Below are positions 4,552 to 60,362 of a DNA stretch of 64,000 nucleotides, in pieces. The DNA is from a phage: the sequence record PZ386973.1. One strand, 5' to 3'. The translations under genes and the position numbers were made by a program. Position 1 is the first letter of the stretch; each line of letters begins with the position of its first letter. The notes under the pieces were generated by a model. The model searched no databases. It saw nothing but the letters and a program-made list of their open reading frames with translations, and was not told the origin of the DNA.

Positions 4552-4723
4552 AAAGTTTCTCCTCTAGTTCCATAACACGATTTTCATAAGAGGCACGCAA
4601 CTTTTCAATTGCCAGCGCACGCACTGTAACCTCATTAGAATTAATAGCTAATTGGGCCAGGTCTTCTGTTTCCATACGTCCATTGTAAATTAAGCGATAT
4701 TTAAGATGTTTTACGTTTTTCAT
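4520..4723 (-). CDS. hypothetical protein
   Basis: Track ORF. Confidence 0.4.
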   Translation of the reverse strand: MKNVKHLKYRLIYNGRMETEDLAQLAINSNEVTVRALAIEKLRASYENRVMELEEKLYGILEADATR

Positions 4724-4732
4724 TCTTGTTCC

Positions 4733-5014
4733 TTAGTTCTGTACTGTAAATTTATTCTTATCACAGTAAGCATAATAATACCCATACATACGATAAATTT
4801 TCACAGCCTTAGTAGACCCCTTCGATTCTTCATAATCAATCCAGAGCCACTTGTCTTTACCTACATAATGTACCCGAAACTTCTTAACTTTCTTATCATT
4901 CCATGTTGCAACAACACGACGATAATCAAATCCGCCCAACCAATCTAGAGCCTTACGTTCTTCACTAGGCTCTCCAAGATGGGAGACATCTACTTTAGGA
5001 AGCAATTCGCTCAT
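4733..5014 (-). CDS. hypothetical protein
   Basis: Track ORF. Confidence 0.4.
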   Translation of the reverse strand: MSELLPKVDVSHLGEPSEERKALDWLGGFDYRRVVATWNDKKVKKFRVHYVGKDKWLWIDYEESKGSTKAVKIYRMYGYYYAYCDKNKFTVQN

Positions 5015-49917: not shown

Positions 49918-50517
49918 GTCGGATTTGCACACTGCATTTCTAGAAATTTATGGTCGGATTTGCACAAACGCCTAAGTTTTTAGGAACATATAATCTCTTG
50001 AAAATAGCAGCATTATTTCGGGCCGAAGGCCCATGATTGCCTGAGTTTTTAGAGCCACAGAAATTTTCCCTTGTCAAGCTATTTTGCCACATTTAGCTAA
50101 TAAAATTTTACTTTTTCTGCACCTATCTCAAATCTTCTCCAATTATCTCAACTCTTCCCCAAAATCCCGGCAAATCTGGTGCTCCGCACCAACCATGCGC
50201 CCACATCCCTCTAGTCCCCAAAATTTCTTCGTTCTCTCAACTTCTCTCCAAACCTATACAATCACACACCCTCTAATCGAAGTCATAAAAATCTTGTCGG
50301 ATTCGCACATCTTAATCCTAGAAAAACCGTGTCGGATTTGCACATACCCCACAGGATTCGAACGCAGTTCGTGATTGCTGGAGTTTTTGGGAAAATTCAT
50401 TGTCGGATTCGCACACTATAAAAATTTTTAGGGTCGGATTTGCACACTACCAAAAATTGTCGGATTCGCACATACACGCCAGCACGTAACCCGTGGAGCA
50501 AATGTCGGATTTGCACA
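49918..50517. repeat. iteron array: 8 direct copies of GTCGGATT(T/C)GCACA
   Basis: Copies at 49918, 49963, 50296, 50331, 50402, 50433, 50459, 50504, all same orientation. Confidence 0.85.
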
Positions 50518-50522
50518 AAAGC

Positions 50523-50700
50523 GCAGGGCAATTGCCCTGCTAGTTTGAATGCGAATAAAAATGAGAATCATTATCATTTAAAAAGCGGAATGCGAATGAG
50601 AATCATTATCATTTACGAAAGGGAATGAGAACTATTCAGGAAGTGAAACGATTCTCATTTAGATAGTGAAATGCGAATGATAATGATTCGCATTTAAAAA
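50523..50700. repeat. 18-bp palindrome GCAGGGCAATTGCCCTGC plus direct and inverted copies of a GAATGCGAATGAGAATCATTATCATTTA unit
   Basis: Palindrome 50523-50540; repeat copies around 50547-50615 and inverted or palindromic copies 50646-50696. Confidence 0.75.
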
Positions 50701-50727
50701 CGGAAGTGAGAAACACTGTTATTTAAG

Positions 50728-50819
50728 TTATCCACAGACTTATCAACAGCACGATTTGACTTGACAAAATCCTAGCCATTTTGAGGCGTTATTAACAGAC
50801 TTATCCACAGCTTATCCTA
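50728..50819. promoter_or_regulatory. cluster of DnaA-box-like 9-mers (TTATCCACA and variants)
   Basis: TTATCCACA at 50728 and 50801; variants TTATCAACA, TTATTAACA, TTATCCTAC. Confidence 0.6.
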
Positions 50820-50835
50820 CTGTATAAATATACAG
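50796..50835. repeat. left arm of a 40-bp inverted repeat (partner 54682-54721)
   Basis: CAGACTTATCCACAGCTTATCCTACTGTATAAATATACAG; reverse complement matches the right arm at 39 of 40. Confidence 0.8.
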
Positions 50836-50986
50836 TATTCCTACGCAGTGAATAGTTCTAATATAGCGTTAAAACGTCCTAGATCGCATTCTAACGCGTT
50901 TAATTTTGGTGGGGATACTAAAACAAGGGGGTATTTATCTGGAGGGAGAAAAACGGGGATCAGATCCCCGTCGATTATTAGAAAAG

Positions 50987-51100
50987 AGGGCAATTATCCC
51001 GCTTTGCCATTTCGCGCCACTCATCCTGATGCCTAGACTTGCGACGGCGTACTAAAAACCGTTTATACCAGTGATTAAACCATCGTTTCATAAATCCTCC
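50987..51100 (-). CDS. small basic protein
   Basis: ATG after GAGGAGG; 37 codons; below track threshold. Confidence 0.3.
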
Positions 51101-51291
51101 TCAGGTAGTCGATGCGTGATCTTCTCCTCTTCCCCATAGGAATCGACCAAATGTTGATAATAACCATCGGCATCATAAATCACTTTATCATATTCGCCAC
51201 GCTCGACCGCTTGCCGATTCTCAGGTGTATCCGGCACATAGAAAACATCAACCATTGTGGTAGTTTTGGTCACAATAATTTTATTGCTCAT
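51088..51291 (-). CDS. hypothetical acidic protein
   Basis: Track ORF. Confidence 0.4.
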   Translation of the reverse strand: MSNKIIVTKTTTMVDVFYVPDTPENRQAVERGEYDKVIYDADGYYQHLVDSYGEEEKITHRLPEEDL

Positions 51292-51514
51292 AATAACGCT
51301 CCGTTATTAAAAATCCCCATATATTCCCGGCCAAATTTTACTAGTAACATAAGTTACTATCCCGGCAACAATTACGCTATAAACTATTAATAAGGTAAAC
51401 ATTAAACCAGACATAATAACTCCTAGTAAATATATTTTTGCCAATAGTGGCGAACGTTATCGCCACCAGCGGAATCATTAGCTGCCTCAGCATTACCAAC
51501 GAAAATATATAATC

Positions 51515-51874
51515 TCATTGTGCCACCTTTCGGAATGCTGTTTCAATACTATCCGCAGTGGATTGAATATATGCGCCTTTCATTATCAGGCGCTCAGTGC
51601 ACACCTTACGGAAGATATTAATAAAATCATCTTCATTTTCTGCGATTAATGCCTCCCCCATGACCTGAATATCACAAGATGCGAAAGTCAAAAATTGAAA
51701 CGCTAGTTCACGGGCAACGACCGCATTGATTTTATAATGCGCCTTGCCCTCATAAATATTAATAACGCCCTTGTAAGCCGGGGAAAGCTGATTTAAGTAG
51801 TTTGCTAACACTGCCGGACGGCAATTAGTAACAAAGCGATTGCCTTCATAAATTATCATTTGCATAGCTCCCAA
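51515..51874 (-). CDS. hypothetical protein
   Basis: Track ORF. Confidence 0.45.
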   Translation of the reverse strand: MGAMQMIIYEGNRFVTNCRPAVLANYLNQLSPAYKGVINIYEGKAHYKINAVVARELAFQFLTFASCDIQVMGEALIAENEDDFINIFRKVCTERLIMKGAYIQSTADSIETAFRKVAQ

Positions 51875-52101
51875 ATAGTTCCGCCGATAATCATTAGCTG
51901 ACTAATGATTATCAGAATAAAACCGATTGAAGGCAGGACGCCCCAATATTGGAACGCCCTTTTAATTTGTTGAATCATTTGTTAGCCTCCCAATTAGATA
52001 GCCAGATAATAACATAAAGATCCCCAGTAAAAGGGGATCATTTTTAAATAAGGTGGCGGTAAAACCGCCAACCATTGCAAGGGTAATAATAATAACGCTT
52101 T

Positions 52102-52314
52102 TCATAGTACCCCACGAAAGGCCGCGTAAAAGGTGGCAAAGTGTTTAACCGTTTCAGCGATCACGTTGCCGCGCTTATCAAATTTCTTTTCGGTAACACG
52201 AAAGGCATTTTTGTTACGTGCTACATATTCGATTTTACAATCAGGACGCTCAAACGTGTTTACATCCACCAGCTTAAAGCCTTTCGAACGTGCAAGAGAA
52301 ACGTTGCGAATCAT
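52102..52314 (-). CDS. hypothetical basic protein
   Basis: Track ORF. Confidence 0.4.
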   Translation of the reverse strand: MIRNVSLARSKGFKLVDVNTFERPDCKIEYVARNKNAFRVTEKKFDKRGNVIAETVKHFATFYAAFRGVL

Positions 52315-52317
52315 TTT

Positions 52318-52470
52318 TTATTCTCCTTTACTAGTCATGCAGCCCAGCAGATAAGAAAATGCAGCGATACCCGCGCCAATAATAACCGCGTGGACACCGA
52401 AAGCTATTGCAAAAAGGGATAAAATAGCGCCCAAGATACCTGCTAGAATAGCTCGAAAAATAACCATTTT
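52318..52470 (-). CDS. small hydrophobic membrane peptide
   Basis: 50 codons, two hydrophobic segments; one of several sub-threshold TM mini-ORFs between 51303 and 52470. Confidence 0.35.
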   Translation of the reverse strand, partial: KMVIFRAILAGILGAILSLFAIAFGVHAVIIGAGIAAFSYLLGCMTSKGE

Positions 52471-52513
52471 CATTCTCCTAGTTAGTGGGGCGAAAGTAAC
52501 GCCCCATTATTAA

Positions 52514-52746
52514 TTACATTAAAACAATTTTAGCGGCTTGTTTTTTGGTGCAATGTTCCGCTTTCAGGGTATCCAGCAAAAAGCCAGCCGTTTGCTGATC
52601 GATTTTATCGGCATTATATAGTTCCTGAATGGTGTTATAGGTTTTAGCAATGCCGAACTCCTGCACCATTTCATGAATGATGACGCGATTAGATACCCAA
52701 CCTTGCGCGGTGAACAGATGACTAGCAGAAGAATATGCAACCATTT
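52514..52746 (-). CDS. hypothetical protein
   Basis: Internal ATG with GGAGG RBS. Confidence 0.4.
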
Positions 52747-52811
52747 TAAGCCTCCAAATTTTTGGGAAAATTTTCAACCGTCCTCAAACGGTGTAAAGGC
52801 ATTATAACAAA

Positions 52812-52838
52812 AAAGGCCGCCATAATAGGCGGCCTTTA
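52812..52838 (-). terminator. intra-operon terminator/attenuator hairpin
   Basis: AAAGGCCGCCATAATAGGCGGCCTTT with a T-run on the minus strand. Confidence 0.45.
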
Positions 52839-52850
52839 CAAAACTTTACA

Positions 52851-53345
52851 TTAAACTACTTGTAAGGATTCAACATTGAAACATCGTTTTAATTCGTCAT
52901 GCAAAACAGCGTATTCCTCCCATCGGGTACTATCAGGAATATAAACAAGCTGTTTTAATCGGTTTGCATATATTACCGCTTTGTTATCAATTATCTCGAC
53001 GCCACCATATTTAATAACTAATTTCATGACGGAATTAATAGGATCGCCGCCGTTTACATATGTGCCGGACTTACTCAATTGATAATGATAAAGGCTTGCA
53101 TACACGTTGTCATTTTCAACCCATTCGCCAGTATCCTCATCTTCATACCCATCGCTACCAAAACGAGAAGCATTATCAATAGCCATTTCCTGAGCGAAAG
53201 CGTCGAGATCTGTACCAGCAGGAACAAAATATTCTTCGGTGTTCCCTTCCCCGCAGTACCCAGTATGGCAATCGACCAAAATGATCATATCGTGTTTTGC
53301 CGTGCTCACTTCTCCCAGTGAGAAGCCATATTTTTCCTCAGCCAT
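52851..53345 (-). CDS. hypothetical acidic protein
   Basis: Track ORF. Confidence 0.5.
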   Translation of the reverse strand: MAEEKYGFSLGEVSTAKHDMIILVDCHTGYCGEGNTEEYFVPAGTDLDAFAQEMAIDNASRFGSDGYEDEDTGEWVENDNVYASLYHYQLSKSGTYVNGGDPINSVMKLVIKYGGVEIIDNKAVIYANRLKQLVYIPDSTRWEEYAVLHDELKRCFNVESLQVV

Positions 53346-53410
53346 TTATTATCCTCCTATTAATTAATCAGGGAATAGTAAAGCGGGGAAACAATCCCCG
53401 CTAGATATTA

Positions 53411-54415
53411 TTATTCGCTTTCGGTGCTAGTGGTGAAGGTAGAAATATCGATACCTTTTACCATTTCATCAATCATTTCAGCGATGTTAAAACTTTGCAC
53501 CATTTCCAACATTGCCGCTTCCATAGCTGCCCCTGCTACCGCTTTCGCTTTCTGATTGCTTGGGGCATACTGGTCAACCGCTACGCTCAGCAGGTTGGCA
53601 ATTACTACTCGACCAATCGGCGTATCAATATAACCTTTAATCATGAACGGTGCTTTTTTAGCCGCTACTTTCGTAATTTGAGTCAGTGCAATTTTACCCG
53701 CTTCCAGTTTTGCAGCGTTTACAACAGCGGATTTATTAGCGGCAACAATATTAGCGATCTTGGTCATAGTATTTTTTCCTTTGTTTTCAGTAGTTTGAGT
53801 ATTAACGCTTTGAGTGTTAGAATTTACAACATGGTTTTCTGTATTGTCAACTGGTTTTAGCGTAAATCCAGCATTTGCAACATTTGATTCATTCCCATAC
53901 TCTAAATAATCGCTAGGGATCAACATGTTACCCGTTGACTTTTCAAAACACAAAACACCAGTTGTTTCTATTGCGTAACTATCCGCACCTTTATAGTTTG
54001 ATGATAGTTCACGCCAGATACTATTTAGTAACGATTCGACACTATCAAGCCTGATATTATTTATTTTTGTTGCTATTACCTGCTCTTTTTCTTGCACGTT
54101 ATATAATCGCGCAATGTAACCATTATTCGGCTCACTGTAACCAACAATGATAAAATCAATATCAGTTCCCCGACTGTTACGGAAAACGTGATAATCACGG
54201 TTGAAAATTACTAGTACCCTTGTCTGGTCTAGTAGTAATATGAAATCATTGACTGAATAATGAGTATCATTACTGTCTAAAATTTCATCATGAATCTTTT
54301 CAACCATGCTAGCGGTATGTTGTACACTTGCCGCGCTACTACCATCTAGCAGGTTGCGCAAACTACCCTTTACAATAGTTGCGTTTGCTGGTACTGCAAT
54401 TCTAGTAAAAGACAT
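53411..54415 (-). CDS. hypothetical two-domain protein with low-complexity linker
   Basis: Track ORF; first gene of the minus-strand cassette. Confidence 0.5.
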   Translation of the reverse strand: MSFTRIAVPANATIVKGSLRNLLDGSSAASVQHTASMVEKIHDEILDSNDTHYSVNDFILLLDQTRVLVIFNRDYHVFRNSRGTDIDFIIVGYSEPNNGYIARLYNVQEKEQVIATKINNIRLDSVESLLNSIWRELSSNYKGADSYAIETTGVLCFEKSTGNMLIPSDYLEYGNESNVANAGFTLKPVDNTENHVVNSNTQSVNTQTTENKGKNTMTKIANIVAANKSAVVNAAKLEAGKIALTQITKVAAKKAPFMIKGYIDTPIGRVVIANLLSVAVDQYAPSNQKAKAVAGAAMEAAMLEMVQSFNIAEMIDEMVKGIDISTFTTSTESE

Positions 54416-54681
54416 TCTCTTGTCTCCCTCGTTAATCGGTGAGTGAATGATAAAGGTATTTTCTTTCTAGGGGCAAATATTATTTTACCTTTTTATTTTC
54501 CTTGCCTAACGCCTAGTTTTATGCTAACCGCGCAGCGGTGCAATAAAGAGCAAACCACGGCGAAGCCACCAGGCCGACGCATCGAGGCTTTACTTTAATA
54601 TTACCCCACCGCATTTAGCTCGTTAGAAAGCGTTTTAGGCGGCCTAAAATTGATTGCAGTTGTTAACACTACCTTTTTACC

Positions 54682-54721
54682 CTGTATATTTATACAGTAG
54701 GATAACCTGTGGATAAGTCTG
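54682..54721. repeat. right arm of the 40-bp inverted repeat (partner 50796-50835)
   Basis: CTGTATATTTATACAGTAGGATAACCTGTGGATAAGTCTG. Confidence 0.8.
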
Positions 54722-54789
54722 TGTAAAACTCCTTATATCGCCGCCTATCGTGTCAAATTATTTTGTGCTGTGGATAACGTTGTGGATAA
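54699..54789. promoter_or_regulatory. cluster of DnaA-box-like 9-mers (TGTGGATAA orientation)
   Basis: TGTGGATAA at 54708, 54769, 54781; TAGGATAAC at 54699. Confidence 0.6.
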
Positions 54790-55150
54790 CTTAAATGATA
54801 GTGGTTCTCACTTAGGCCGATAGTTTCTTATAGTTATTATTTCTATCGGTTACGATTTCTTATAATTATTATTTCTCACTAATTTATATGTATATTATAT
54901 ATTATAGAATAGTTAGTTGGCTAATGAGATTTTCCGTGATTAATAGTCTGCTAATAGTTTAAGCCGTTACAATCCACCAGCATGATTATCATCCTAGCAA
55001 TTATTAGTCTGCTATCTTTCCGATGCATACTAACAAATAAAAGTCAATTAATTTAGTTCATAAAATAAGTAGTTATCCACTGGAAAATAAAAGTCAAGTG
55101 GATAACTAGGAAAATTTCATTTTTGCTTTTGGGGATAAGTTATCAACAAG
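54790..55150. promoter_or_regulatory. AT-rich region with an inverted DnaA-box pair (origin-like)
   Basis: Long A/T-rich tracts; TTATCCACT at 55073 and AGTGGATAA at 55097; no ORF. Confidence 0.4.
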
Positions 55151-55493
55151 GCTAGAATGCGCCTAAAACGCCCTAGAATGCGATGAAAGTTTTAGTCATG
55201 CCATTGCATTGCCTACCCTCGTTTATCTCTACCACGAGCTTTTTAGGTTTTGTCAAGTAGGGCAAAGCAAATATAAATGAAAAAATTACTTGCCTATCTG
55301 CTATGTTTTGTGGTATTCGCGCGCCCGTTTCTTTTAATTTTAGTGCGCCGCGCCCAGGTCGCCGCACGCCGTCCGGTGAATCGTGTCTTTACATTTCTTT
55401 ACAAAAATAAGGTTGCGCCATTTTCGGGAATCCCCTATTATTTATCACGTAGGGCGGCAATGACGAACTACACGGCGGGAAGTTTACCGCCAC

Positions 55494-55532
55494 GCTCTTT
55501 AAAAATTGGGTACATCTTAAAGCCTATCGGCG
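55494..55532. repeat. left arm of an imperfect inverted repeat flanking ORF 55564-55767
   Basis: TGGGTACATCTTAAAGCCTATCGGC core; partner 55773-55813. Confidence 0.65.
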
Positions 55533-55563
55533 GTAAACTTATACATTATAAGGAATCGACGAT

Positions 55564-55767
55564 ATGAAACAAACTTTATTGATCACTGGCAAGCCTAGCA
55601 AGGCACTAGATAGCAAAACAAAAAATTTGTTGACAGTAGCGCAAAGATCGGTAAAATACCGATTCAAGCAATACAAGAAAGGCCGCCAGCAAGGTCTAGA
55701 AATGATCTGGCGAAATATTATGATTGACTTGAAAGAAAATCATAAAAAATCTCAAAAAATTGTTTGA
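55564..55767 (+). CDS. small basic protein flanked by inverted repeats
   Basis: Track ORF; AAGGA RBS; Lys/Arg-rich. Confidence 0.4.
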   Translation: MKQTLLITGKPSKALDSKTKNLLTVAQRSVKYRFKQYKKGRQQGLEMIWRNIMIDLKENHKKSQKIV

Positions 55768-55772
55768 CAACC

Positions 55773-55813
55773 TAGCCGATAGGTTTTAAGATGTACCCAG
55801 TTCGATAAGAGCG
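55773..55813. repeat. right arm of the inverted repeat flanking ORF 55564-55767
   Basis: GCCGATAGGTTTTAAGATGTACCCAG core. Confidence 0.65.
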
Positions 55814-55997
55814 ATAACTTGATAAAATTTGACGGTCGGTGCTTACCATAATGCATCCCGCCCCCTAACTGGGATATAGCGGCCTACGTGGAGTTCTTTA
55901 AATTGATTTAACTGGCGAGCGGATTGTTACTTATTACCTGCTACTGTTTTCTAGCAGGTAATGCGGAACAATCCTCAAATAACTAGGAGTTTATATT

Positions 55998-56249
55998 ATG
56001 CAAAACGTTATCACCGCGCCGAAAGTTGGTCAGTCTGTTTTTATTCCTTTCGTTACCAAAACGGATGAATTAACCGGAAAGGCCGAACGTATTAAAGGTG
56101 CGGCGCTTATGCCGTTTGATACAATCGACGCGGTATATGCTGAAAATGAACGCAGTAACAACGGCAAACCCGTTTTTAACGTTCGTGTTAAATCCGGCGA
56201 CGTTGTAAAGGTTGTTCAACGCAACGAAAAATGGGAAGCTGTATTATAA
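55998..56249 (+). CDS. hypothetical protein
   Basis: Track ORF after AGGAG. Confidence 0.45.
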   Translation: MQNVITAPKVGQSVFIPFVTKTDELTGKAERIKGAALMPFDTIDAVYAENERSNNGKPVFNVRVKSGDVVKVVQRNEKWEAVL

Positions 56250-56350
56250 TCTAGTGTTAACTTTATATTCCCCTGAAATATGGGGAATATAACGATTAAC
56301 ATTAAGTTAATCATTAAATCCCTTAAATTAAACAAATAGGAGTTTTTACC

Positions 56351-56758
56351 ATGACTAACGTTAAAACCGCAAAATTCGCTTGGAATGAAGAAAACACTCA
56401 GAAAGCTGTTTCTATGTACCAGCAGTTAATCAATGAAAACGGTTTAGATTTCGCAAATAGTGACGGCCTGAAAGAAATTGCAAAAGCAGTTGGCGCGGCT
56501 TCTCCCGTATCCGTTCGGTCAAAATTGACCAGCGCGAAAGCGTATCAGAAAAGCGATAAGCCGCGCAAAGTTGGCGGTGGTAGCTCAATCCGCAAAGCGC
56601 ATTATGTACGCGTTATTGCTAAACATGCTATTGATTCCGGCATTATCAAAGACGCCGATGATCTGGCAAGCCTTGAAAGTGCTAAACTTGAAACGCTGGA
56701 CGCCGTGGCGCAACTGTTAGGCGTTGCCGATGAAGTGAAACAAGCCGCAGGAGAATAA
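56351..56758 (+). CDS. pre-early-region protein, possible A2 counterpart
   Basis: Track ORF after AGGAG; sits immediately upstream of the A1-like gene; assignment by position and size only. Confidence 0.4.
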   Translation: MTNVKTAKFAWNEENTQKAVSMYQQLINENGLDFANSDGLKEIAKAVGAASPVSVRSKLTSAKAYQKSDKPRKVGGGSSIRKAHYVRVIAKHAIDSGIIKDADDLASLESAKLETLDAVAQLLGVADEVKQAAGE

Positions 56759-56846
56759 TTATATACATTGCCCTTCCTAGTGGGAGGGCAATAATATAAC
56801 TGTTTAGCGATAGTTATTTTCTTCCCTTAAATCAGGAGTTTTAAAA

Positions 56847-57044
56847 ATGATTTTCTTTCCTACTGAGTCATTAATTTTAGGCTTGTTTATTATGGCGGCC
56901 TCGTTATTACTCGCTTATTTTCAAAATGATTTAGATTCATATTATTTTAAACGTAAATCTAAGTTAGCAAAGCGTTTAGGTCTGATTTGTTTTATTGCCG
57001 CCGTTGCTTGTGGTGTTAGTTCTAGCCTTATGCCTTTAAATTAA
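56847..57044 (+). CDS. small membrane protein
   Basis: Track ORF with hydrophobic helices. Confidence 0.3.
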   Translation: MIFFPTESLILGLFIMAASLLLAYFQNDLDSYYFKRKSKLAKRLGLICFIAAVACGVSSSLMPLN

Positions 57045-57118
57045 TGTTGCAAATTATAACGCCTATTATTCAAGGCGTTATATTTGGCAATATTGCCGTT
57101 ATTAACTTAATCCCTTTA

Positions 57119-58798
57119 ATGGAGTTTATTACTATGATTATTTCCGCAGAAAAACAAACCGTTATCCTGAAAATGGCCGCTGACTTTAATTTCTATGGTA
57201 AACGTCTGCGCGCCACTAAACTGGAGGTCTGCGACGATATATCAAAAGCGGTCTACGATACAACAAAACACTCGACCGCTATCTGCGACTGGCTGGAAGC
57301 AAATAAACCAGTTAAACCGAAAGCGGCGAAAGTAGCAAAAGCCATTAAAAACGATGAGCGTCCAGAAGCGGCGGGGATTGTTTCTAGCACGGTTGAACAG
57401 TGGGAAGTAAAACAAGGCAAACGCTTTATTATTACGTCGATTCAGAATAATACTTTCCCGCATAAAAACTTTTTAGCCTCATTGGAAAAATTCGCTGAAT
57501 ATATCGGTGCTGATTTGCTTGTTTCTAAGTATATTTATAATAAAAACGGCTTCCAAAATGGCGAGGGTGCGGATGGAATCAAATATGATTCCGCGTTCGA
57601 TAAATATATTTGCAGCAAAAACGTGTTTTTAAATAACCGCCGTTTTGCTTTCATGGCTGAAATTAATGTTTTGCCAACAGCAGACTATCCGCTTTCTGGA
57701 TTCGCTGAAACTGCAACGGCGCTTAATCTGGAAGGTCTGGCAATCGGTCATGCTAAAATCACCGCTGAAAGCGTGCCAGCTCTCAAAGGTGAAGTAGTAC
57801 GCCGCATGTATTCAACCGGAACGGCAACGCTCAAAAACTACATTCAGCAGAAAGCAGGGCAAAAAGCGGAAGCGCTTCATAACTTTGGTGCGCTGATTGT
57901 CGAGTTCGACGAGGACGGGGAGTTTTTTGTTCGCCAGCTTGAAACTATGGATGAAAGCGGGGTGTTTTATGATCTGAATGTTTGCGCTACTCCCGCCGGA
58001 TGCTATGAAACAACGGGGCATGTTTTAGGCTTGCAATATGGTGACATACACGCCGAAAAATTGGATGATGATTGTGCCGTTGCGTCATGGGCTGGCGAAA
58101 ATAGCTTGCTTGATATTCTTAAACCAAAATATCAGTTTGTGCATGATGTGCATGATTTTACATCGCGCAACCATCACAACCGCGCTTCGGGTGTATTCCT
58201 AGCAAAACAATATGCCGCCGGACGTGATAAAGTTCTGGATGATCTTATCGATACGGGGCGCGTGCTGGAATCGATGGAACGAGATTTTAGCCAAACAATC
58301 ATTGTTGAATCTAATCACGATCTGGCGCTATCCCGCTGGCTTGATGATCGTAATGCTAACATTAAAGACGATCCAGCAAACGCGGAACTATATCACCGCC
58401 TGAATGCCGAGATTTATGGAGCTATTGCAGAAAAAGACGATACTTTCAACGTGCTAGATTATGCATTGCGCAAGGTTGCAGGTTGTGAGTTTAACGCCAT
58501 TTTCCTAACAACTGACCAATCATTTAAAATTGCAGGCATCGAGTGTGGCGTACACGGTCACAACGGCATTAACGGCAGCCGTGGCAATCCTAAACAATTT
58601 AAGAAATTGGGCAAATTGAACACCGGACACACTCACACCGCCAGCATTTACGGCGGGGTATATACCGCTGGCGTTGCTGGTAGTCTCGATATGGGTTACA
58701 ACGTTGGCGCGTCAAGCTGGACGCAAACGCATTTAATTACCTATGCAAACGGGCAGCGCACTTTGATCGATTTTAAGAATGGTAAATTCTTTGCGTAA
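57119..58798 (+). CDS. A1: A1-like pre-early protein with metallophosphoesterase domain
   Basis: GDIHA, GHNG and GHTHT metallophosphatase motifs; about 555 aa from the internal ATG; matches T5 A1 as recalled. Confidence 0.6.
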   Translation: MEFITMIISAEKQTVILKMAADFNFYGKRLRATKLEVCDDISKAVYDTTKHSTAICDWLEANKPVKPKAAKVAKAIKNDERPEAAGIVSSTVEQWEVKQGKRFIITSIQNNTFPHKNFLASLEKFAEYIGADLLVSKYIYNKNGFQNGEGADGIKYDSAFDKYICSKNVFLNNRRFAFMAEINVLPTADYPLSGFAETATALNLEGLAIGHAKITAESVPALKGEVVRRMYSTGTATLKNYIQQKAGQKAEALHNFGALIVEFDEDGEFFVRQLETMDESGVFYDLNVCATPAGCYETTGHVLGLQYGDIHAEKLDDDCAVASWAGENSLLDILKPKYQFVHDVHDFTSRNHHNRASGVFLAKQYAAGRDKVLDDLIDTGRVLESMERDFSQTIIVESNHDLALSRWLDDRNANIKDDPANAELYHRLNAEIYGAIAEKDDTFNVLDYALRKVAGCEFNAIFLTTDQSFKIAGIECGVHGHNGINGSRGNPKQFKKLGKLNTGHTHTASIYGGVYTAGVAGSLDMGYNVGASSWTQTHLITYANGQRTLIDFKNGKFFA

Positions 58799-58851
58799 TT
58801 AAATTATTCCCTAGCGGCTTGAAATATAGCCGCTATTACAGGAGTCAAAAA

Positions 58852-59109
58852 ATGAAAGTTACATTACCCAAAACATTGGACGAAAAAGTATTCATTTCAC
58901 CGGATGAAATGGAATCTGATAAAGTTTACAGCTTCGGGCCTATCCTAGCCGCCAAAACTAATACGGATGGAATTATTACAGTCGATTATCGTGATAATGA
59001 TGTTGTCCCCTTTGACGATGATGACGCTTTTTATGAATGGTTGAGCGATAATAATTTACCCGTAAATGGTGAATTAACGCCGTATCAAATGCAAATTATT
59101 ATTAAATAA
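58852..59109 (+). CDS. hypothetical acidic protein
   Basis: ATG 58852 after CAGGAG. Confidence 0.4.
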   Translation: MKVTLPKTLDEKVFISPDEMESDKVYSFGPILAAKTNTDGIITVDYRDNDVVPFDDDDAFYEWLSDNNLPVNGELTPYQMQIIIK

Positions 59110-59147
59110 ATTAAATCCCCTATTAAACTAATTGGAGTTTTATAAAT

Positions 59148-59540
59148 ATGAAAAAGCAAAATATCCCATTCGATCGCGCTCAGTCCTCAATTGTTCTGGT
59201 TTATTCTAATGGCGAACGTTACCACGTCGAGGCGGGGCATGTTATTGATGACCTATTAGATTTCAATGACGCTGTGCAGGTTACTACCTTTGCCTATACA
59301 CAAGGCAAACTAACCAGCCATATTAAGGCAAAAGGCGTTTATGTTGACACGGTGAAACAAGAAACGATTATCATCGATGCCGTAAAATCCGGCCTAGCCT
59401 TTGCAGTTGTCGCGCCTTGCCTCGCTTGCCTTGATGATCAATTGATTAGTGCAAAGGTCTACACATGTGCGGGGATTCGTTCTAGCGTATCCGGTGAGGA
59501 TGTTAGTTTTATCGCTGATGCGTTGGCTTATGGTCTTTAA
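59148..59540 (+). CDS. hypothetical protein
   Basis: Track ORF. Confidence 0.45.
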   Translation: MKKQNIPFDRAQSSIVLVYSNGERYHVEAGHVIDDLLDFNDAVQVTTFAYTQGKLTSHIKAKGVYVDTVKQETIIIDAVKSGLAFAVVAPCLACLDDQLISAKVYTCAGIRSSVSGEDVSFIADALAYGL

Positions 59541-59627
59541 TAGTTGATTGAACACAGCCCGCTGATAAAGTATCATTAGTGGGCTGGATTGAATTAACTT
59601 AATCCCTTAAATGGAGAATGCAACAAA

Positions 59628-60362
59628 ATGAATCAAGTTAAAACGAATATTACCCGTAATTTCCCGCATATTTCCCGCGTTATGATTTGGGATCTGGACG
59701 GCACTATCATTAATTCTTTCCATCGTGTAGCGCCTTGTTTTGATAGCGAGGGCAATTTAGATTTAAATAAGTATAAAAATGAAGCCTGCAAACATCATTT
59801 AATAATGCAGGATTCATTATTGCCATTAGTTGAATATATGCGCCAGTGCATGAATGACGCTAACACGCTAAACATTATTTGCACCGCTCGACTAATGAGC
59901 AAATCAGATTATTATTTCTTGCGTAAACAAGGATTGCGAGGGCGTGGAAATAGTAATATCCGCGTGTTTTCCCGCGATACCCTGCACAAATACTTTAAAG
60001 CTGATAAGGTTAGCGAAATATACCACAGCAAGGACGCAGTATATAAAAGCCATTATTTTGAATTATTTAAACAATTATATCCGAACGCTGATTTTACAAT
60101 GATTGATGATCATAAAGGCGTGTTAGCGGCGGCGGCATCATACGGATTTAAAACGCTAGACGCGCAAGCCGTTAATGATATTCTATCAATCGGTGTTACA
60201 TTGATTGGTGAAACCTTTATTGATGAATCGCTCGACGATGATAATGATTATCAGTTCCTGGCCGACCGCCTGCAATTATGTTGGGAAGGTATGACCGAGG
60301 AAGAACGCGCAGAATATAGTTGCAGCCCGCAACAATATATTGAGAAATTAAAAGTTGCGTAA
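59628..60362 (+). CDS. dmp: HAD-family 5'-deoxyribonucleotidase-like protein
   Basis: MIWDLDGTIINS (DxDGT motif I); 244 aa; matches T5 dmp as recalled. Confidence 0.6.
   Translation: MNQVKTNITRNFPHISRVMIWDLDGTIINSFHRVAPCFDSEGNLDLNKYKNEACKHHLIMQDSLLPLVEYMRQCMNDANTLNIICTARLMSKSDYYFLRKQGLRGRGNSNIRVFSRDTLHKYFKADKVSEIYHSKDAVYKSHYFELFKQLYPNADFTMIDDHKGVLAAAASYGFKTLDAQAVNDILSIGVTLIGETFIDESLDDDNDYQFLADRLQLCWEGMTEEERAEYSCSPQQYIEKLKVA

What the first reader, a model, noticed from the sequence alone, without database searches (positions are those of the whole stretch)
55494..55813. Small basic ORF precisely flanked by an imperfect inverted repeat
The 67-aa Lys/Arg-rich ORF (55564-55767) sits between arms containing TGGGTACATCTTAAA(G/A)CCTATCGGC in inverted orientation (55494-55532 and 55773-55813). 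The arms could be twin operators for an autoregulated DNA-binding protein, an RNA stem enclosing the whole message, or the ends of a miniature element.
Basis: seen in the sequence. Interest (0 to 1): 0.55.

Follow-up and report, generated by a model that had tools for sequence, protein, structure and literature searches.

The report
RNA stem bracketing T5 hdi gene
This is the inverted repeat already annotated as IRA/IRA' in phage T5; it flanks hdi, a known inhibitor of host cell division, and its two arms change together across four phage lineages, so it most likely forms a long RNA helix closing off the hdi message, while its downstream arm also serves as the core of the strong promoter P-D/E20.

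Summary
The arms are 55493-55531 and 55775-55813 and flank a 67-aa ORF. It is the best inverted repeat of its size class in the window, and 0 copies are expected by chance.

All the parts are already known in T5. The window is a T5-like phage pre-early region. The repeat is T5's annotated "inverted repeat A/A'". The ORF is hdi (T5.008), which destabilises the FtsZ ring and is not a DNA-binding protein. The right arm lies on the spacer, -10 and start site of the classical promoter P-D/E20. P-H22 sits inside the ORF.

New here: the arms stay complementary while their sequence drifts.
- Arm identity between lineages falls to about 50%, but complementarity within each lineage is 89-100%.
- There are double substitutions and one matched 1-nt insertion in both arms.
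- In 48 sequences, 99.3% of core cells pair.
- Single changes are mostly G·U on the + strand (95 cells against 3 A·C).

The arms persist whatever ORFs lie between them, including DT57C, which lacks hdi. A conserved promoter-like module lies upstream of the left arm.

Best reading: a long-range mRNA helix, probably an RNase III or stability element. The operator and mobile-element readings are rejected. This is a moderately interesting new member of a known kind.

The parts
55413..55441 (+). Conserved promoter-like module upstream of the left arm: TTGCGC (55413-55418), 17-nt spacer, TATTAT (55436-55441). The inferred start site is near G55449. This is the candidate promoter for the hdi message.
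   Evidence: the -35-like hexamer, an invariant TATTAT and an invariant TTATC(T/A)CGTAGG(G/A)CGG block are kept in Tequintavirus, Epseptimavirus, Sugarlandvirus and the AAS21/KEY phages, while the spacer sequence differs. This is the usual signature of a promoter. Promoter activity itself is inferred, not shown. (H89): window 55440-55510 is 95.8% identical to Klebsiella phage Spivey.
55449..55492 (+). Conserved 5' leader with a small hairpin (GGCGG 55474-55478 pairing with CCGCC 55487-55491).
   Evidence: The hairpin appears in the minimum-free-energy and centroid folds. In L021/L025 the hairpin loop is inverted but the stem is kept.
55493..55531 (+). Left arm, equal to T5 'inverted repeat A''. 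Outer 7 nt at 55493-55499, core 28 nt at 55504-55531. It lies in the 5' untranslated region of hdi.
55550..55554 (+). Ribosome-binding site (AAGGA) of hdi.
   Evidence: Read directly from the sequence. TATAAGGAATCG is invariant in relatives.
55564..55767 (+). hdi (ortholog of T5 gene 008/T5p008), 67 aa. It is a host division inhibitor that acts on FtsZ.
   Evidence: 86% identity to T5p008. Pfam PF24188/DUF7416, E = 6e-37; phrog_4718. Function from PMC10714956. The protein is conserved where the DNA has diverged.
55630..55657 (+). Promoter P-H22 inside hdi: TTGACA, 16-nt spacer, TAAAAT, preceded by an A-tract.
   Evidence: 11 of 12 consensus matches; annotated 'promoter P-H 22' at the homologous T5 position; described as experimentally characterised.
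55764..55792 (+). Promoter P-D/E20: TTGACA, 17-nt spacer, TAAGAT. The inferred start site is A55799. It drives the genes 007, A2 and A1.
   Evidence: 10 of 12 consensus matches. T5P1/'promoter P-D/E 20' at T5 4664-4738, which maps onto window 55743-55817..
55775..55813 (+). Right arm, equal to T5 'inverted repeat A'. Core at 55775-55802, outer 7 nt at 55807-55813. It overlaps the last 12 nt of the P-D/E20 spacer, the -10 hexamer and the start-site region.

Best explanation
The two arms are the strands of a long-range RNA helix in the mRNA that carries hdi. The helix has a 28-bp core, plus a 7-bp outer helix in T5-type phages.

Transcription from a conserved promoter about 45 nt upstream of the left arm puts the left arm in the 5' untranslated region. 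The promoter is inferred. There is no room for another promoter between the arm (ends 55531) and the ribosome-binding site (55550). There is also no terminator between the stop codon and the right arm. Every message able to express hdi should therefore carry both arms, and the cassette becomes a closed loop.

Transcripts started at P-H22 (about 55662-55666) carry only the right arm. Transcripts started at P-D/E20 (about 55799) carry almost none of it. The duplex therefore marks only messages that come from upstream.

A near-perfect RNA duplex of 28 bp is the kind of substrate that E. coli RNase III cuts. This rests on established knowledge and was not tested here. The most likely function is processing or insulation. 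Cutting would release the small, toxic hdi cistron, with its ends still paired, from the downstream 007-A2-A1-dmp message, so that its stability or dosage is set separately.

What is shown: the repeat, its identity with IRA/IRA', the promoter overlap, the covariation and the predicted fold. What is inferred: the upstream promoter, helix formation in vivo, RNase III cleavage and the regulatory outcome.
For: (1) Identity of the parts. T5 records annotate inverted repeat A (4682-4706) and A' (4950-4974), promoter P-D/E20 (4664-4738), T5p008 (4715-4918) and P-H22 (4810-4867) at the homologous positions.

(2) Selection for complementarity. On 48 distinct Tequintavirus/Epseptimavirus sequences, 99.3% of core cells pair. 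Five pairs show changes on both sides (18 cells). None of 500 shuffles reaches the observed values, and controls with the partner slid by 1-3 columns pair only 29-42%. Specific events:
- C-G to U·G to U-A at 55513:55793.
- U-A changed to A-U at 55511:55795, separating Tequintavirus from Epseptimavirus.
- C-G changed to U-A in DT57C.
- U·G restored to C-G in oldekolle and DT57C.
- A matched 1-nt insertion in both arms of L032/L060.
- A-U changed to G-C within the AAS21 clade (L106).

(3) Four lineages have a repeat at the same place with different sequences. Left-arm identity between lineages falls to 13-15 of 28, while complementarity within each lineage is 89-100%.

(4) Strand asymmetry. In the core there are 95 G·U cells at 9 sites on the + strand, against 3 A·C cells at 3 sites, each in a single sequence, and no transversion mismatches inside the helix (the 7 'other' cells come from an alignment offset at the helix end in Epseptimavirus).

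(5) Folding. The + strand RNA folds to -128.7 kcal/mol (z = -10.9) with the helix in both the minimum-free-energy and centroid structures. The - strand folds to -112.4 kcal/mol. The helix is also predicted for Sugarlandvirus and AAS21. RNAalifold recovers it from scratch.

(6) The arms do not depend on what they enclose. They flank hdi alone, an extra ORF plus hdi, or the extra ORF alone.

(7) A promoter signature upstream of the left arm is conserved in all lineages.

(8) hdi RNA is made during infection: an LbuCas13a spacer against hdi counter-selects wild-type T5.
Against: - No transcript-end or RNase III data were available. A literature search for T5, RNase III and pre-early returned nothing.
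- The upstream promoter is only inferred.
- The strand asymmetry is statistically marginal when counted by sites: sign test p = 0.07, rank test on frequencies p = 0.047.
- AAS21 and KEY carry one C·A mismatch on the + strand.
- The co-changes, especially the matched insertion, could arise from template switching or gene conversion between the arms without any RNA role.
- The right arm is also constrained as a promoter, so its conservation is not independent evidence.
- The RNA model does not by itself explain why the 3' arm always covers the -10 and start site of the downstream promoter.
- Pairing over 243-410 nt must compete with translation and with a local 12-bp alternative pairing (55480-55491 with 55529-55540).
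- hdi is dispensable for growth in the laboratory.
Confidence: 0.5

Rival explanations
1. The arms work at the DNA level as two binding sites for a phage or host protein. One candidate is the A2 DNA-binding protein with A1, which dampens pre-early transcription. Binding at both arms would loop out P-H22 and cover the -10 of P-D/E20, shutting off the pre-early operon.
For: The right arm covers the spacer, -10 and start site of P-D/E20 in every lineage. P-H22 lies between the arms. A1-dependent dampening of pre-early promoters is reported. A2 diverges between lineages (66% identity to Sugarlandvirus), so co-evolution of the site and the protein is conceivable.
Against: No third copy of the arm motif exists in the window, including at the promoter of the divergent gene-011 operon. 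A binding site would be kept by sequence rather than by complementarity, yet single-sided changes are tolerated mainly when they give G·U on one strand. Matched transversions and a matched insertion fit pairing better than a shared recognition sequence.
Confidence: 0.15
2. The repeat has no function of its own. It is a quasi-palindrome kept uniform by template switching or gene conversion between the arms. Alternatively, the conserved flanks serve only as homology for swapping small-ORF cassettes between co-infecting phages.
For: Cassette content between the arms varies: hdi alone, the extra ORF plus hdi, or the extra ORF alone. The matched 1-nt insertion in both arms of L032/L060 is what template-switch correction would produce. 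A hairpin loop nearby is inverted in L021/L025.
Against: The repeat has persisted through divergence to about 50% arm identity across four lineages, always at the same position. G·U exceeds A·C, and there are no uncompensated transversions in 48 sequences. Arms of 25-39 nt lying 243-410 nt apart are poor substrates for frequent conversion. This last point is an inference.
Confidence: 0.15
3. The left arm is a vestigial or cryptic inverted copy of the P-D/E20 core that fires leftwards, giving divergent or antisense transcription.
For: Read on the - strand, the left arm carries the same TAAGAT and GTACCCA as the P-D/E20 -10 and start region.
Against: No -35-like hexamer lies 16-18 nt upstream on the - strand in T5-type or AAS21-type sequences (read). 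The promoter scan finds no - strand site there. This idea also does not explain covariation outside the -10.
Confidence: 0.05
4. One reading: the arms are operators bound by the ORF's own product, or the unit is a miniature inverted-repeat mobile element.
For: The ORF product is small and basic, and terminal inverted repeats flank it.
Against: Hdi acts on FtsZ (PMC10714956) and has no DNA-binding family match. DT57C keeps the arms without hdi. There is a single locus per terminal repeat in about 450 phage records, no other copies, no empty site and no target-site duplication.
Confidence: 0.03

Closest known systems
T5 'inverted repeat A / A'' in Repeat Region 1 of the left terminal repeat (GenBank AY587007; Davison preprint 10.1101/866236)
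   Same: It is orthologous. It has the same position between gene 007 and the upstream non-coding region, 24-25 of 25 identical core bases, and the same overlap with T5P1/P-D/E20 and T5p008.
   Different: Nothing structural differs. In T5 it is annotated only as a repeat. Davison calls the region 'untranslated' and assigns it no function. The covariation and RNA reading are added here.
Lambda sib/int retroregulation (from general knowledge, not tested here)
   Same: An RNase III-sensitive duplex exists only in transcripts from one promoter, so the origin of the transcript decides the fate of the message.
   Different: In lambda, the difference is at the 3' end (read-through against termination), the hairpin is local, and the outcome is 3' decay of int. 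Here the difference would be at the 5' end (which promoter fired), and the helix spans the whole cistron.
RNase III processing stalks of 16S and 23S rRNA, and the RNase III sites between phage T7 early genes (from general knowledge)
   Same: The rRNA stalks are long-range helices formed by sequences flanking a complete functional unit. The T7 sites cut a polycistronic early phage message into separate pieces whose ends remain structured.
   Different: The T7 sites are local hairpins and the rRNA stalks enclose non-coding RNA. Here the loop is a 1-2 ORF cassette, and the 3' strand doubles as a promoter core. Cleavage is not shown.
Promoter-early stem-loop (PeSL) cassettes of T4-type phages (from general knowledge)
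   Same: Early promoter sequence is combined with stem-forming sequence at the borders of small, variable early ORFs, and cassette content varies between relatives.
   Different: PeSLs are short local stem-loops repeated many times in direct orientation, and they act as recombination linkers. Here there is a single inverted pair that encloses the cassette.

Membership tests
T5 IRA/IRA' (annotated repeat of the T5 terminal repeat) | Same sequence and same position relative to A2, gene 007, T5p008 and promoters P-D/E20 and P-H22. | tested here: met
   the window aligns with T5 at 92% mean column identity, and the arms map onto T5 4682-4706 and 4950-4974.
Conserved RNA secondary-structure element | Pairing is kept through compensatory changes and exceeds the controls. 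| tested here: met
   99.3% of core cells paired, 5 pairs with double changes, 0 of 500 shuffles as high, slid controls 29-42%; four lineages with different arm sequences; recovered from scratch by RNAalifold.
Conserved RNA secondary-structure element | Strand-specific tolerance of G·U but not A·C, which separates RNA from double-stranded DNA symmetry. | tested here: inconclusive
   95 G·U cells at 9 sites against 3 A·C cells at 3 sites (p = 0.07 and 0.047). AAS21 and KEY carry one C·A. The events are not corrected for phylogeny.
E. coli RNase III substrate | About 20 bp or more of near-continuous double-stranded RNA. | tested here: met
   a 28-bp core with 2 G·U pairs is predicted in the minimum-free-energy and centroid structures.
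E. coli RNase III substrate | Cleavage in vivo or in vitro that depends on the rnc gene. | not testable with these tools
   This needs Northern blots or RACE in wild-type and rnc-mutant hosts, or an in vitro assay. No literature was found.
Known RNA family (Rfam) | A match to a curated covariance model. | tested here: not met
   no match overlaps 55440-55830 at E up to 1.
Autoregulatory operator pair | The enclosed gene encodes a DNA-binding protein, and the sites always accompany that gene. | tested here: not met
   Hdi is DUF7416 and an FtsZ inhibitor. DT57C has the arms without hdi.
Miniature inverted-repeat transposable element | Multiple dispersed copies, target-site duplication, and occupied versus empty sites among relatives. 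| tested here: not met
   only this pair in the window; one place per terminal repeat in about 450 records; arms present in all Tequintavirus, Epseptimavirus and AAS21-clade sequences, and by the repeat finder in Sugarlandvirus. The flanks CCGCCA|CGCTCTT and AAGAGCG|ATAACT are not duplicated.
Intrinsic terminator | A G+C-rich stem immediately followed by a run of U. | tested here: not met
   no terminator-like site here. The right arm is followed by ATAACTTGATAAAAT, and the loop is 243 nt.

The most novel reading that the evidence does not exclude
The element is dual-coded. On DNA, the right arm is the spacer, -10 and start site of one of the strongest known sigma-70 promoters. On RNA, the same bases form the 3' strand of a helix that exists only in messages started upstream. 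The phage would then use promoter choice to decide which transcripts acquire an RNase III or stability tag, a 5'-end version of lambda retroregulation. This would uncouple the dose of a toxic FtsZ inhibitor from the essential A1/A2 operon. The requirement that the arm end just at the P-D/E20 start site would explain why the arm and the promoter core coincide in all four lineages.
Probability: 0.25. Interest if true: 0.6.

Novelty: new member of a known kind. Interest (0 to 1): 0.4.

Why it matters
The repeat-rich non-coding parts of the T5 first-step-transfer DNA have been catalogued since the genome was sequenced in 2005, but no function has been assigned to Repeat Region 1.

Evidence that IRA/IRA' is kept for base pairing, probably in RNA, gives this region its first testable function. 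It also bears on how T5 sets the level of a toxic early protein, Hdi, that sits on top of two very strong promoters.

There is a practical point as well. The locus has resisted cloning and deletion. Anyone engineering hdi, P-H22 or P-D/E20 should know that changing the P-D/E20 core also changes one strand of a conserved helix.

Tried and rejected
- Rfam scan of 50000-60000 at E up to 1 gave nothing over the element.
- A second IMG/VR scan anchored on gene 007 returned the same roughly 30 genomes as the scan anchored on A2. The one metagenome scan added 18 loci.
- I looked for a third copy of the arm motif at other pre-early promoters and found none. A general-operator model was therefore marked down.
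- I looked for a -35 element that would make the left arm a leftward promoter and found none.
- Terminator reading: there is no U-tract.
- Mobile-element reading: there are no extra copies and no empty sites.
- A local 12-bp alternative pairing (55480-55491 with 55529-55540) is lost in L021/L025, where the hairpin loop is inverted. It is therefore not the conserved feature.
- Davison 2015 (PMC4743489) is not held.
- The original P-D/E20 sequence could not be found in the open-access text. The promoter assignment therefore rests on the GenBank AY692264 annotation and on the 2026 preprint.
- No paper links T5 pre-early RNA with RNase III.

Full report
**What is in the sequence.** The inverted repeat is real. 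Its arms are 55493-55531 and 55775-55813 (39 nt, 85% complementary, 243 nt apart). Pair by pair it consists of a 7-bp outer helix, a 4x4 internal loop and a 28-bp core (55504-55531 with 55775-55802). The core has 26 Watson-Crick and 2 G·U pairs on the + strand. The 25-nt core occurs only twice in the 64-kb window even with three mismatches allowed, against 0 expected. It is the longest inverted repeat in the window with arms up to 800 nt apart. The 67-aa ORF 55564-55767 has an AAGGA ribosome-binding site at 55550-55554. The left arm ends 33 nt before its ATG and the right arm starts 8 nt after its stop codon.

**Where the window comes from, and what is already known.** Megablast places the region in T5-like phages: 451 records, mostly Tequintavirus and Epseptimavirus. 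It lies in the pre-early (first-step-transfer) region upstream of gene 007, A2 and A1.

The three T5 GenBank records are decisive.
- AY587007 annotates 'inverted repeat A' (4682-4706) and 'inverted repeat A'' (4950-4974), plus putative pre-early promoters T5P1 and T5P2.
- AY692264 annotates 'promoter P-D/E 20' (4664-4738), CDS T5p008 (4715-4918) and 'promoter P-H 22' (4810-4867).
- The window aligns with these records at 92% mean column identity, so these features map one to one.

In the window, the promoter scan finds TTGACA-16-TAAAAT at 55630-55657 (P-H22, inside the ORF) and TTGACA-17-TAAGAT at 55764-55792 (P-D/E20). The right arm therefore covers the last 12 nt of the P-D/E20 spacer, its -10 hexamer and the start-site region; the start is inferred at A55799. 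A 2026 preprint describes both promoters as experimentally characterised and as overlapping the gene.

The ORF is 86% identical to T5p008 and belongs to Pfam DUF7416 and phrog_4718. T5.008 is Hdi, shown experimentally to destabilise FtsZ rings and to give T5 a competitive advantage (PMC10714956). It is toxic when expressed alone. Davison's preprint lists IRA/IRA' in 'Repeat Region 1', notes that it is conserved, and proposes no function.

**Evidence from relatives.** I collected 61 unique upstream regions. They were anchored on the neighbouring genes A2 or 007 rather than on the ORF itself. The sources were IMG/VR, metagenomes and GenBank phages.

An unbiased search for the best long-range inverted repeat recovers the homologous pair in every Tequintavirus, Epseptimavirus and AAS21-clade sequence. 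In Sugarlandvirus, the repeat finder finds it at the same position.

The content between the arms varies:
- hdi alone, with 241-261 nt between the arms;
- an extra 46-57-aa ORF plus hdi, with 398-410 nt (L060, L073, UTK0009, Sugarlandvirus);
- the extra ORF alone in DT57C, with 217 nt;
- two small ORFs in Pantoea phage AAS21 and Erwinia phage KEY, with 341-344 nt.

The arms are therefore not tied to hdi.

The arm sequence drifts, but the arms stay complementary. Left-arm identity between lineages falls to 13-15 of 28, while complementarity within each lineage stays at 89-100%. In each lineage the right arm again covers the spacer end, the -10 and the start region of the promoter upstream of gene 007. 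That promoter is TTGACA-17-TATTAT in Sugarlandvirus and TTGCAA-17-CATAAT in AAS21.

Within the Tequintavirus/Epseptimavirus set the specific events are as follows:
- C-G, U·G and U-A states at one pair;
- a U-A to A-U exchange separating the two genera;
- C-G changed to U-A in DT57C, which also turns the -10 into TAAAAT;
- a U·G restored to C-G twice;
- a 1-nt insertion present in both arms of L032/L060.

L106 shows an A-U to G-C exchange relative to AAS21.

The formal count on 48 distinct sequences gives 99.3% of core cells paired, 5 pairs with changes on both sides, 0 of 500 shuffles reaching the observed values, and 29-42% pairing when the partner is slid by 1-3 columns.

**RNA or DNA?** Single-sided changes in the core give 95 G·U cells at 9 sites on the + strand. 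Only 3 A·C cells occur at 3 sites, each in a single sequence, and there are no uncompensated transversions. The sign test gives p = 0.07 and the rank test on frequencies p = 0.047.

The + strand RNA of 55449-55830 folds to -128.7 kcal/mol (z = -10.9) with the helix in both the minimum-free-energy and centroid structures. The - strand folds 16 kcal/mol less well. The Sugarlandvirus and AAS21 units fold the same way. RNAalifold recovers the helix from scratch.

A promoter signature lies upstream of the left arm in every lineage: a conserved -35-like hexamer, a variable 16-17-nt spacer, an invariant TATTAT and an invariant TTATCTCGTAGGGCGGCAA. The first 60 nt after it are 96% identical between the window and a Klebsiella phage whose proteins are only 55-66% identical.

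There is no space for a promoter between the arm and the ribosome-binding site, and no terminator after the stop codon. Any hdi-competent message should therefore carry both arms. This is an inference. hdi RNA exists during infection, because a Cas13a spacer against it counter-selects wild-type T5.

**Proposed mechanism.** The best-supported reading is a long-range helix in upstream-initiated mRNA that closes off the hdi cassette. Transcripts from P-H22 carry only the 3' arm, and those from P-D/E20 carry almost none of it. The duplex therefore marks only messages from upstream.

From general knowledge, a 28-bp near-perfect duplex is an RNase III substrate. Cleavage would separate the toxic hdi cistron from the 007-A2-A1-dmp message and leave its ends paired. 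That would set its stability independently of the operon. I put 0.5 on 'functional RNA helix' and roughly 0.3 on the specific RNase III step.

**Weak points.**
- There are no transcript data.
- The strand asymmetry is marginal and is not corrected for phylogeny.
- AAS21 and KEY carry a C·A mismatch.
- Template switching between the arms could generate the matched changes.
- The RNA model alone does not explain why the 3' arm always coincides with the promoter core.

**Rivals.**
- A DNA-level pair of protein sites that loops and represses the tandem promoters, for example A1/A2-mediated shut-off, remains possible at 0.15. It is weakened because no third copy of the motif occurs at the other pre-early promoter, and because what is conserved is pairing rather than sequence.
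- A neutral quasi-palindrome or recombination linker is put at 0.15.
- A cryptic leftward promoter lacks a -35 element (0.05).

**Verdict.** The parts (IRA/IRA', hdi, P-H22, P-D/E20) are already known. The added value is evidence that the repeat is kept for base pairing, probably as RNA, across four Demerecviridae lineages. This is a new member of a known kind, of moderate interest.

Noticed in passing
window 55396-55510: A non-coding block conserved far beyond its surroundings. It is 95.8% identical over 71 nt to Klebsiella phage Spivey, whose neighbouring proteins are only about 55-66% identical. It consists of an A/T-rich block, TTGCGC-17-TATTAT and an invariant TTATC(T/A)CGTAGGGCGGCAA leader start. 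It is probably an unannotated pre-early promoter plus leader for hdi.
   Followed up: partly
window 55493-55510; L086 992-1009 and 1395-1412; L088 892-910 and 1381-1399: The motif CGCTCTTTAAAAAT(T)TGG sits just 5' of the left arm in all lineages. In Epseptimavirus-type, Sugarlandvirus and AAS21/KEY phages a second, direct copy sits just 3' of the right arm, about 10 nt into P-D/E20-type transcripts. In T5-type phages that position instead holds the inverted AAGAGCG, which forms the outer 7-bp helix. Its function is unknown.
   Followed up: partly
window 55921-55943 / 55952-55974: A 23-bp hairpin (87% complementary) in the 5' untranslated region of gene 007, just upstream of its ribosome-binding site. 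Hairpins with different sequences occupy the same place in L037, L040, DT57C and AAS21/KEY. This suggests a second structured element with covarying arms.
   Followed up: partly
window 55645-55663 (inside hdi): The -10 of P-H22 (TAAAAT) lies in the loop of a small inverted repeat, ATCGGTA-AAA-TACCGAT. Epseptimavirus sequences have ATCTGTA...TACAGAT, a matched change made through synonymous codons (Ser and Arg). Other sequences carry mismatches, so the constraint is weak.
   Followed up: partly
L060 911-1069; L073 914-1072; L110 1298-1471; L088 963-1130; L109 1027-1197: A family of 46-57-aa ORFs of unknown function (phrog_21018 and phrog_25172; shared ...DG..I/L motif near the C-terminus). They are inserted between the left arm and hdi in some phages. 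In DT57C one replaces hdi.
   Followed up: partly
window 54707-54791 and 55070-55154: Paired DnaA-box-like repeats (TGTGGATAA / TTATCCAC, for example CTGTGGATAACGTTGTGGATAACT) arranged as direct and inverted repeats. They correspond to Davison's IRC-spacer-IRD region, which he proposes as part of the injection stop signal.
   Followed up: no
window 55280-55319: A third element with the T5 promoter signature: AAAAAATTAC-TTGCCT-18-TATTCG with a TG one base before the -10. It shares the A-tract/-35 repeat with P-H22 and P-D/E20 (D4) and is conserved in T5. It may be an additional upstream promoter.
   Followed up: no
L021/L048 and L025/L056, homologous to window 55474-55491: The loop of the leader hairpin is inverted (GGCGG-GAAGTTTA-CCGCC becomes GGCGG-TAAACTTC-CCGCC) while the stem is kept. 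This is an example of inversion mediated by a palindrome.
   Followed up: no
L095, between the left arm and the hdi ribosome-binding site (homologous to window ~55541-55549): A (TA)n expansion (TATTATATATATATATAAGG) lengthens the space between the left arm and the ribosome-binding site by about 10 nt without touching either arm.
   Followed up: no
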